Source of the DNA: a virus
Lineage: Duplodnaviria; Heunggongvirae; Uroviricota; Caudoviricetes
Length of the DNA: 7,566 nucleotides
Virus record (IMG/VR): IMGVR_UViG_2698536559_000017
Direction: 5' to 3' (one strand)
In this document: one piece after another, positions 5,551-5,803 of the stretch
Layout of the letters: each line of letters opens with the position of its first letter
How positions within the stretch are numbered: the stretch's first letter is position 1
Program-made: the position numbers and the translations under genes
The notes under the pieces: model-generated
What the model saw: only the letters and a program-made list of their open reading frames with translations
What the model was told of the DNA's origin: nothing
The model's database searches: none

Positions 5551-5606
5551 TATATTTGTGTTTCATTAATCGCAACAATGGGTGTTATCATTGCAATAAA
5601 TGAAAC
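5551..5606. promoter_or_regulatory. candidate promoter with an imperfect 20-bp-arm palindrome (GTTTCATTAATCGCAACAATG ... CATTGCAATAAATGAAAC) upstream of the four-gene operon
   Basis: GTTTCATT (5560..5567) and AATGAAAC (5599..5606) are exact reverse complements; the inner arms are partially complementary. A TATATT -10-like hexamer lies at 5551..5556 and TATCAT at 5586..5591. No other promoter candidate exists between the terminators and the ATG at 5630. Confidence 0.45.
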
Positions 5607-5629
5607 GGTGATACGTTGTTGGAGGTATC

Positions 5630-5803
5630 ATGAAAACAAAAAACGTAAGGGCCGTACTTCTGGCCCGTGAACAGATAGAGCGCCTTGAGCGGATCCGCAA
5701 CGACGAAGCTGCACGCTCAGCCTACGGCATCAGACCAACCATTCACGAAGTAGCCAGAAAACTCATTGATGAAGCGCTGAATAAAGGGAGCTGTAATGCC
5801 TGA
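5630..5803 (+). CDS. small protein (57 aa), first gene of the operon; possible DNA-binding regulator
   Basis: Not in the ORF track because it is under 60 aa. ATG 5630 has GGAGG 6 nt upstream. It translates to MKTKNVRAVLLAREQIERLERIRNDEAARSAYGIRPTIHEVARKLIDEALNKGSCNA. The stop at 5801..5803 overlaps the next ORF's ATG 5796. The helical, charged character suggests a small regulator or antitoxin-like protein, but no family is recognised. Confidence 0.55.
   Translation: MKTKNVRAVLLAREQIERLERIRNDEAARSAYGIRPTIHEVARKLIDEALNKGSCNA

What the first reader, a model, noticed from the sequence alone, without database searches (positions are those of the whole stretch)
5551..5803. Palindromic operator plus a 57-aa first gene: likely autoregulated operon
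The imperfect palindrome (GTTTCATT ... AATGAAAC outer arms, 5560..5606) overlaps the only plausible promoter for the four-gene operon. The first gene encodes a 57-aa charged helical protein that was missed by the 60-aa ORF cutoff. This is the classic layout of a small repressor or antitoxin that autoregulates the genes behind it.
Basis: inference. Interest (0 to 1): 0.45.

Follow-up and report, generated by a model that had tools for sequence, protein, structure and literature searches.

The report
Small RHH regulator heading PICI late operon
The 57-codon gene is real. It encodes a predicted ribbon-helix-helix DNA-binding protein and sits behind two conserved operator sites at the start of the cargo ("late") operon of a phage-satellite island, so it is most likely an ordinary self-regulating repressor from an uncatalogued family, not an antitoxin.

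Summary
A 14/16 inverted repeat lies at 5560-5606, and only 1 of 2000 shuffles of the intergenic region reaches that level. The 57-aa ORF at 5630-5803 has a strong Shine-Dalgarno site and is annotated in RefSeq. Its substitutions fall mainly at third codon positions.

Comparison of 25 related promoters refines the picture. The "palindrome" is two 15-bp sites (TTKCA-N5-YGMAA), O1 at 5561-5575 and O2 at 5591-5605, always exactly 30 bp apart. They are as conserved as the -10 hexamer and are almost absent elsewhere in 333 kb of related islands.

The module always follows the replication genes of Gram-negative PICI satellites, including the validated EcCIMP1. It heads a variable late zone that often carries tape-measure or DNA-ejection genes. 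That context, and the lack of a toxin-binding tail, argue against an antitoxin.

DNA binding and autorepression are inferred, not shown. In this window the family's TATAAT is degenerate (GGTGAT). Verdict: new member of a known kind, moderate interest.

The parts
5453..5485 (+). Intrinsic terminator after the PerC gene (10-bp stem, T-run). It insulates the downstream unit from the replication/PerC genes.
   Evidence: Equivalent + strand terminators lie 18-100 nt upstream of O1 in 11 of 21 related loci.
5494..5513 (-). G+C-rich hairpin followed by a T-run on the minus strand (minus-strand terminator-like site). Its role is unknown.
   Evidence: Alignment A1 shows two compensatory stem changes against L002/L003: GCCGCCAC/GTGGCGGC vs ACCGCCAG/CTGGCGGT. 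Fold z = -2.4.
5561..5575 (.). Operator O1, TTTCATTAATCGCAA. Two 5-bp half-sites lie one helical turn apart (TTKCA-N5-YGMAA).
   Evidence: Mean information content is 1.47 bits per position over 25 non-identical promoters, against 0.51 in the upstream flank.
5591..5605 (.). Operator O2, TTGCAATAAATGAAA. It starts exactly 30 bp after O1, as in every relative examined.
   Evidence: 1.39 bits per position. In the main clade it is followed by one base and then TATAAT.
5583..5591 (+). TGTTATCAT, an extended -10-like element (TGnTATCAT) between O1 and O2. It is a candidate replacement -10 in this clade. Speculative.
   Evidence: Read from the sequence. It is conserved as TGCTATCAT in L002/L003. It was not called by the consensus scan.
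5607..5612 (+). The position where the family's -10 hexamer sits (TATAAT in most relatives). Here it is GGTGAT, which is degenerate.
   Evidence: Anchored alignment. The -10 column block carries 1.51 bits per position across the family.
5621..5625 (+). Shine-Dalgarno GGAGG, 4 nt before the ATG.
   Evidence: An equivalent CAGGAGG/CAGGGGG is present in relatives.
5630..5803 (+). 57-aa gene. Predicted ribbon-helix-helix protein: extended residues 1-12, helix 13-29, turn G33-x-x-P36-T37, helix 38-55.
5796..6656 (+). Second gene, 286 aa as read here. Its ATG overlaps the stop of the small gene. An in-frame GTG at 5967 with its own SD is the start used by PGAP in NZ_CP027550, where a 1-bp shorter G-run splits the ORF. 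It is a paralogue of gene 3. Function unknown.
   Evidence: No Pfam, PHROG, NCBIfam, PADLOC or phage tblastn match.
6653..7315 (+). Third gene, 220 aa, a paralogue of gene 2 (shared H..A..NPVLA...W E...NGY core). Orphan family.
   Evidence: Only 7 clusters in 5.8 billion proteins.
7312..7566 (+). Fourth gene, 84 aa, PHROG 1231 (unknown function).
   Evidence: E = 1.5e-23.

Best explanation
The 57-aa protein is a stand-alone ribbon-helix-helix (CopG/Arc-type) transcription factor. It is the first gene of the 'late zone' operon of a Gram-negative phage-inducible chromosomal island (PICI). The proposed mechanism is as follows. RHH dimers insert their N-terminal beta-ribbon (V-R/K-A/P-V-L-L) into the major groove at each TTKCA / TGMAA half-site. 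Two dimers occupy one 15-bp operator, whose half-site centres are 10 bp apart. Two such operators, O1 and O2, lie 30 bp apart on the same face of the helix. In most family members O2 fills the spacer immediately upstream of a TATAAT -10, at about -28 to -14, and O1 lies at about -58 to -44. Occupancy should therefore block RNA polymerase. Because the regulator is the first product of the transcript, this would give negative feedback on the cargo genes. Shown here: the gene is real and under purifying selection; the two sites and their spacing are conserved; in the sequences examined the sites were found almost only upstream of a homologue of this gene; the predicted fold is RHH. Inferred: that this protein, rather than another factor, binds O1/O2; the stoichiometry; and that the effect is repression.
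Against: There is no binding or expression data. Sequence-based tests for RHH all fail: Pfam, PDB profiles, and hhalign against Arc/CopG/Mnt, probability 0.5%. The first AF2 model, from 7 near-identical sequences, made residues 2-31 a single helix and gave no Foldseek hit. The putative beta-strand is unusually hydrophobic on both faces (VKPVLL). Operator sequence does not covary with the strand residues across clades. In this window clade the family's -10 is lost (GGTGAT here, AATAAA in L002), no sigma-70 promoter is called, and gene 2 is frameshifted in two of the three complete genomes that carry the clade. This copy may therefore be weakly expressed or decaying. A self-encoded autorepressor alone does not explain how late genes would be switched on by a helper phage.
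Confidence: 0.55

Rival explanations
1. O1/O2 are bound by a different factor, encoded by the island, the host or a helper phage, that switches the late zone on or off. The RHH protein does something else: it acts on helper or host DNA, or works as an adaptor.
For: Most family promoters have a perfect -10 but no recognisable -35, a pattern common at activator-dependent promoters. PICI gene expression is known to depend on helper-induced AlpA (PMC11773190, PMC10111431). Some members carry a LexA-box-like CTGT-N8-ACAG over the leader, which shows that other regulators may also act here.
Against: The motif is absent near alpA, which is reported to activate its own promoter, and absent from the rest of the islands. 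It is not enriched in helper phage Kapi1. In enterobacterial-type contigs the promoter type was never found without the RHH gene. The RHH family has no tblastn match in 50,697 phage records. PerC, the upstream neighbour here, is missing from many loci that keep O1/O2.
Confidence: 0.2
2. The RHH protein binds O1/O2 but acts as a positive autoregulator of the late zone, or as a dual regulator, rather than as a repressor.
For: The -35 region is weak. O1 is centred near -51, a position from which some activators act. Some RHH proteins such as AmrZ and TraY can activate (general knowledge). A feed-forward activator would suit a late operon.
Against: O2 occupies the -28 to -14 spacer and abuts the -10. 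That position normally occludes RNA polymerase. Stand-alone RHH proteins of this size (Arc, CopG, omega, ParG) are repressors (general knowledge).
Confidence: 0.12
3. The small protein is an RHH-type antitoxin of a type II toxin-antitoxin pair, and the next gene is its toxin.
Against: There is no C-terminal toxin-binding extension: 53-60 aa in total, with the RHH domain ending at about residue 52. The downstream gene is not conserved across the family and is often a structural virion protein. The window's genes 2 and 3 match no toxin or defence family. Some members have no coupled downstream gene (L040).
Confidence: 0.03
4. The inverted repeat acts at the RNA level, as a hairpin in a read-through transcript or 5' UTR, and is not a protein-binding DNA site.
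For: In this window the two arms could pair (14/16).
Against: In most relatives O1 and O2 are each self-palindromic and are not mutually complementary in a way that keeps a long hairpin. Conservation is of sequence and of exact 30-bp spacing, with no compensatory changes. In the main clade the -10 follows O2, so most of the element would not be transcribed.
Confidence: 0.03

Closest known systems
Stand-alone ribbon-helix-helix repressors: CopG of pMV158, Arc and Mnt of phage P22
   Same: Size of about 45-60 aa. Predicted beta-alpha-alpha topology with a G-x-x-x-[ST] turn before helix B. The first or only gene of the unit it is proposed to control. A short operator of two half-sites about one helical turn apart, overlapping the core promoter. 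Multiple dimers on one DNA face (the comparison with these proteins rests on general knowledge; the features of this locus come).
   Different: No detectable sequence similarity: Pfam none, and hhalign against Arc/CopG/Mnt gives 0.5%. Helix A is longer (17 residues). The strand is hydrophobic (VKPVLL). There are two separate operators 30 bp apart. The genomic niche is the head of a PICI late zone, not a plasmid copy-control or phage immI region.
TraM N-terminal RHH domain of F-like plasmids (pED208, PDB 3on0/3omy)
   Different: TraM has a C-terminal tetramerisation and TraD-binding domain that is absent here. Sequence identity is 8-9%. There is no conjugation context.
Gram-negative PICI 'late zone' (Tommasini, Mageeney and Williams 2023, PMC10111431) and PICI EcCIMP1 (Pick, Stadel and Raivio 2025, PMC11773190)
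   Same: The island has int, an AlpA-type HTH, Icd-like, DUF4222, primase, SSB and PerC in one direction, then a variable block. EcCIMP1 carries a 53-aa homologue (WP_001018524) with O1, O2 and TATAAT directly before its ejection-protein-like genes EcCIMP1_017-019.
   Different: Searches of these two papers for RHH, CopG, promoter and hypothetical protein turned up no description of the small gene or its promoter. In EcCIMP1 it is an unnamed hypothetical. The window's cargo, two orphan paralogues, has no recognisable phage late function.

Membership tests
Ribbon-helix-helix (CopG/Arc/MetJ) superfamily | beta-strand / helix A / helix B topology of about 45 residues | tested here: met
Ribbon-helix-helix (CopG/Arc/MetJ) superfamily | Significant sequence match to a curated RHH family or to a solved RHH protein | tested here: not met
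   No Pfam, NCBIfam or PHROG family matched. PDB phmmer and hmmsearch gave no RHH hit. hhalign against Arc/CopG/Mnt gave probability 0.5%.
Ribbon-helix-helix (CopG/Arc/MetJ) superfamily | Glycine-containing turn with a Ser/Thr N-cap at the start of helix B | tested here: met
   G33 is nearly invariant and P36 invariant. Position 37 is T or S in nearly all members. H39, A42 and R43 are conserved.
Ribbon-helix-helix (CopG/Arc/MetJ) superfamily | Obligate dimer with an antiparallel beta-ribbon that binds repeated DNA sites | not testable with these tools
   Only monomer prediction was available. Suitable repeated sites exist next to the gene, but binding is not shown.
Type II toxin-antitoxin, RHH-type antitoxin (ParD/CopG/TacA-like) | C-terminal toxin-neutralising extension beyond the RHH domain | tested here: not met
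   Family members are 53-60 aa. Helix B ends at about residue 52-55 and the tails are 3-8 variable residues.
Type II toxin-antitoxin, RHH-type antitoxin (ParD/CopG/TacA-like) | A conserved cognate toxin gene adjacent | tested here: not met
   Downstream genes differ between relatives: orphan paralogues here; elsewhere tape measure, P22 gp7/gp20-like, SLT-domain, Dit-like/baseplate hub, or no coupled gene. There are no toxin or PADLOC hits.
Gram-negative phage-inducible chromosomal island (PICI) | Co-oriented int, alpA-type regulator and primase, then a variable late/accessory zone; 10-20 kb; inserted at a specific site | tested here: met
   In NZ_CP027550 the element lies between rcnR and thiM with integrase, HTH regulator, Icd-like, DUF4222, primase, SSB, ProQ/FinO and PerC, then this operon. 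Close relatives sit at other chromosomal locations, one next to tRNA-Pro and one between nfeF and tRNA-Ile. The organisation matches PMC10111431. att sites were not mapped.
Gram-negative phage-inducible chromosomal island (PICI) | Excision, replication and packaging induced by a helper phage | not testable with these tools
   This has been shown experimentally only for the related EcCIMP1 with phage Kapi1 (PMC11773190), not for this element.

The most novel reading that the evidence does not exclude
The RHH-plus-double-operator cassette is the dedicated gatekeeper of the PICI late zone. It would be a portable, island-private promoter module behind which captured helper-phage DNA-delivery genes or other cargo are inserted. 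It would be kept shut by the RHH autorepressor and opened only when a helper-phage product inactivates that repressor, as helper proteins do for SaPI Stl. This would be a second helper-sensing checkpoint in Gram-negative PICIs, alongside AlpA.
Probability: 0.15. Interest if true: 0.65.

Novelty: new member of a known kind. Interest (0 to 1): 0.4.

Why it matters
The module is common but unnamed. The EcCIMP1-type version is present in 501 of 5426 complete E. coli genomes, always as 'hypothetical protein', and the family spans many Enterobacterales genera. It marks the exact boundary between the replication zone and the variable late/accessory zone of Gram-negative PICIs, which is where captured phage late genes and defence genes sit. 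If the RHH protein controls that zone, it is a direct handle on how these satellites time or limit expression of hijacking and defence cargo. It is testable in the existing EcCIMP1/Kapi1 system. The O1-N15-O2 signature plus the small gene would also be a useful annotation marker for finding PICI cargo regions.

Tried and rejected
2. The first AF2 model, from 7 near-identical sequences, gave a helical hairpin with no Foldseek hit. It was superseded by the model from the deeper alignment.
3. The sigma-70 consensus scan found no promoter. My hand-picked extended -10 (5583-5591) and a possible minus-strand promoter (TTGCGA-17-TAGTAT) remain guesses.
A narrower alignment worked.
5. I first thought that tape-measure and ejection genes on satellites might be new. 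Literature shows that late-gene capture by GN-PICIs is already described (PMC10111431), so I dropped it as a novelty claim.
6. I tested whether the operator is shared with a helper phage. Kapi1 shows no enrichment.
7. I tested whether the RHH gene or the cargo genes occur in phages. tblastn found no match.
8. I looked for covariation between beta-strand residues and operator variants by eye. None was apparent.
9. The Rfam scan of the window gave only spurious miRNA hits on the iteron region.
10. The Tai defence paper (PMC11364771) confirms an accessory hotspot next to pri. The passages I retrieved from it do not mention this gene.

Full report
**What is in the window**

The window is part of an E. 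coli chromosomal island. It is 100% identical over 4500-7566, apart from one 1-bp indel, to NZ_CP027550. There the element lies between rcnR and thiM and reads in one direction: integrase, DUF6387, HTH regulator, (YlcI/YnfO on the other strand), Icd-like, DUF4222, primase, SSB, ProQ/FinO, PerC, and then the genes of the finding. Pfam confirms SSB (4121-4564), ProQ/FinO (4621-5145) and PerC (5142-5414). This is the organisation of Gram-negative phage-inducible chromosomal islands (PICIs) described by Tommasini, Mageeney and Williams (PMC10111431): Integration, Bro, Replication and Late zones. The finding sits exactly where the Late zone begins.

**Checking the observation**

- **Inverted repeat.** It is there: 5560-5575 pairs with 5591-5606, 16-nt arms, 88% complementary. 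Only 1 of 2000 shuffles of the intergenic region 5415-5629 reaches 14/16.
- **Small ORF.** The 57-aa ORF at 5630-5803 has a GGAGG 4 nt upstream, and its stop overlaps the ATG of the next ORF. PGAP annotates it as a hypothetical protein.
- **Coding signal.** Against two relatives, changed codons are 10 synonymous vs 4 non-synonymous and 19 vs 9. Base differences by codon position are 3/1/13 and 8/4/23. It is a real, selected coding gene.
- **Operon.** The four ORFs overlap by 8, 4 and 4 nt. No terminator-like site follows the fourth gene in the longer record, so the unit may extend further.

**What the repeat really is**

I collected relatives three ways: exact-sequence look-ups, a scan of one genome per species, and a scan of viral contigs. 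I then aligned 25 non-identical promoters anchored on the proximal site.

The "47-bp palindrome" resolves into two 15-bp quasi-palindromic sites, TTKCA-N5-YGMAA. In the window these are O1 (5561-5575) and O2 (5591-5605). Their starts are exactly 30 bp apart in every case.

| Region | Mean information content (bits per position) |
|---|---|
| O1 | 1.47 |
| O2 | 1.39 |
| Half-site columns | 1.65-1.70 |
| -10 hexamer | 1.51 |
| Inter-operator spacer | 0.73 |
| Upstream flank | 0.51 |

In the 27 sequences examined (333 kb in total) the pattern falls at about -78/-48 from the start codon and has only 4 stray matches elsewhere. In the window it occurs only at these two sites, counted as 3 matches on both strands against 0.38 expected.

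**The promoter, and a caveat for this copy**

In most relatives O2 is followed by one base, a perfect TATAAT, and a conserved leader (nACTGTATAAATATCAGGAGGTG). There is no good -35. O2 therefore covers about -28 to -14 and O1 about -58 to -44.

The window's clade differs at that position. It reads GGTGAT here, AATAAA in L002/L003 and AACATG in L004. The consensus scan calls no promoter at all.

A TGnTATCAT element between the operators (5583-5591) might substitute, but that is my guess. The clade is rare, found in 3 of 5426 complete E. coli genomes. Gene 2 is frameshifted in two of those three genomes, and PerC in one. This copy may be poorly expressed or decaying.

An intrinsic terminator after PerC (5453-5485) separates the unit from upstream transcription. 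Similar terminators occur in 11 of 21 relatives.

**The protein**

- **Family size.** The word-indexed search found only near-identical proteins. Exhaustive phmmer over 1.84 billion representatives found 17, down to 40% identity. A profile of these found 267 clusters across Enterobacterales.
- **Annotation.** None of the clusters has a Pfam domain. Nearly all are called hypothetical, and one UniRef entry says 'CopG family'.
- **Family signature.** V-K-P-V-L-L ... Q..A[IL]..IQE..R..S..G[VI]AP[TS]IH.IAR.L.D.AL.
- **Limits of that assignment.** All sequence-level tests for RHH are negative. An earlier shallow-alignment model was a plain helical hairpin. The fold assignment rests on one prediction plus fold comparison. 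I put it at about 0.8.

**Linkage of gene and sites**

- A scan of 2.9 million viral contigs for O2+TATAAT gave 25 hits. The 9 in contigs of about 50% G+C all have O1, the leader and an RHH homologue downstream. The 16 in AT-rich contigs have none of these.
- The motif does not recur near alpA or anywhere else in the islands.
- The helper phage Kapi1 of the related PICI EcCIMP1 shows no enrichment and no paired sites.
- The RHH family has no tblastn match in 50,697 phage records.

The sites and the gene thus form an island-private pair, as expected for a regulator and its own operator. This is circumstantial.

**Context in relatives, and why it is not an antitoxin**

The module always follows the primase, sometimes with SSB, PerC or a small HTH gene in between. 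The genes behind it vary:

- a tape measure protein (TMP_3 + HK97_TLTM) after a 108-aa ORF in Chimaeribacter; other loci (Pantoea, Erwinia, K. michiganensis) have a similar 108-aa plus ~860-1050-aa pair by size, and the one large ORF of these that was tested (L024, 998 aa) had no Pfam hit;
- DUF2824, P22 gp7-like and gp20-like ejection proteins in Escherichia;
- SLT-domain giants in Klebsiella and Cedecea;
- Dit-like and baseplate hub proteins in Acerihabitans and Rahnella.

This is the 'late gene capture' already described for GN-PICIs.

The experimentally validated PICI EcCIMP1 (PMC11773190) has a 53-aa homologue with O1, O2 and TATAAT directly before its EcCIMP1_017-019 ejection-like genes. 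The passages I searched do not mention it. That version is in 501 of 5426 complete E. coli genomes.

Three facts make the antitoxin reading very unlikely. The cargo is variable and often structural. The protein has no C-terminal extension. There are no toxin or PADLOC hits.

In the window itself the cargo is two mutually paralogous orphan proteins and a PHROG-1231 protein. The functions of all three are unknown.

**Most likely mechanism**

By analogy with Arc and CopG (general knowledge), two RHH dimers would bind each 15-bp operator, whose half-site centres are one helical turn apart. The two operators lie three turns apart on the same face. O2 abuts the -10, so occupancy would exclude RNA polymerase. 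Because the regulator is the first gene product, this would give negative autoregulation.

- **Shown:** a conserved gene, conserved and precisely spaced sites, their near-exclusive co-occurrence, and the predicted fold.
- **Inferred:** who binds, the stoichiometry, and the sign of regulation.

**Rivals**

| Alternative | Confidence |
|---|---|
| Another factor binds O1/O2 | 0.2 |
| The RHH protein activates | 0.12 |
| Antitoxin | 0.03 |
| RNA hairpin | 0.03 |

**Verdict**

Its value is as the conserved entry module of the PICI late zone, and it is testable in EcCIMP1/Kapi1.

Noticed in passing
window 3194-3432: At least eight copies of GGTGAACAGT, in both orientations, lie just downstream of the primase gene. 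They are probably the island's replication origin iterons, since GN-PICI origins lie downstream of pri (PMC10111431). They caused spurious Rfam miRNA-precursor hits.
   Followed up: partly
window 3512-3701: A 95-bp tandem duplication (99% identical copies) lies inside a degraded paralogue of the fourth operon gene (PHROG 1231). PGAP calls the region frameshifted or partial in NZ_CP027550.
   Followed up: partly
window 5487-5560, minus strand: A minus-strand terminator-like hairpin (5513-5494 plus T-run) keeps pairing through two compensatory changes in L002/L003. With a weak minus-strand promoter candidate (TTGCGA-17-TAGTAT, overlapping O1) it could give a roughly 55-nt RNA. The neighbouring gene encodes a ProQ/FinO-family RNA chaperone. 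The RNA body is poorly conserved between relatives.
   Followed up: partly
window 5855-5860: A run of six G (five in NZ_CP027550) decides whether gene 2 is one 286-aa ORF starting at 5796 or is split into 57 aa plus 229 aa. The long in-frame form is also present in L004, L002 and L005, so the basic low-complexity N-terminal extension may be real.
   Followed up: partly
window 5796-6656 and 6653-7315: Genes 2 and 3 are paralogues (23% identity, shared H..A..NPVLA / W-E / NGY core). They form an orphan family of about 7 clusters with no phage, Pfam or defence-system match. Function unknown.
   Followed up: partly
L020 5950-5975, L022, L046, L030 (leader of the RHH gene): In Pantoea and Lonsdalea members the leader reads TACTGTATAAAATAACAGGA, which fits the LexA box spacing CTGT-N8-ACAG. 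Most other members have the same sequence one base shorter (CTGTATAAATATCAG). SOS control of the late-zone promoter in some islands is possible.
   Followed up: no
L019, L020, L023, L025, L026: about 15-40 nt upstream of O1: Conserved paired GATC-containing repeats (CGATCAAAACGATCAAAT) lie upstream of O1, and a GATCA lies just before O2 in many main-clade promoters. They could be Dam methylation sites or a further binding site. They are absent from the window.
   Followed up: no
L052 5981-11149 (EcCIMP1) versus the phage collection: The PICI-borne ejection-protein homologue is only 23-29% identical to any phage gp20 in 50,697 records. These late-zone genes are therefore long-diverged satellite versions rather than recent captures.
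   Followed up: partly
L001 18563-18859, with window 5142-5414: The island carries two PerC-family genes: one just upstream of the RHH module and one near its right end, next to Ant/Bro-N fragments. The EcCIMP1 PerC homologue was reported to silence LEE1 (PMC11773190).
   Followed up: no
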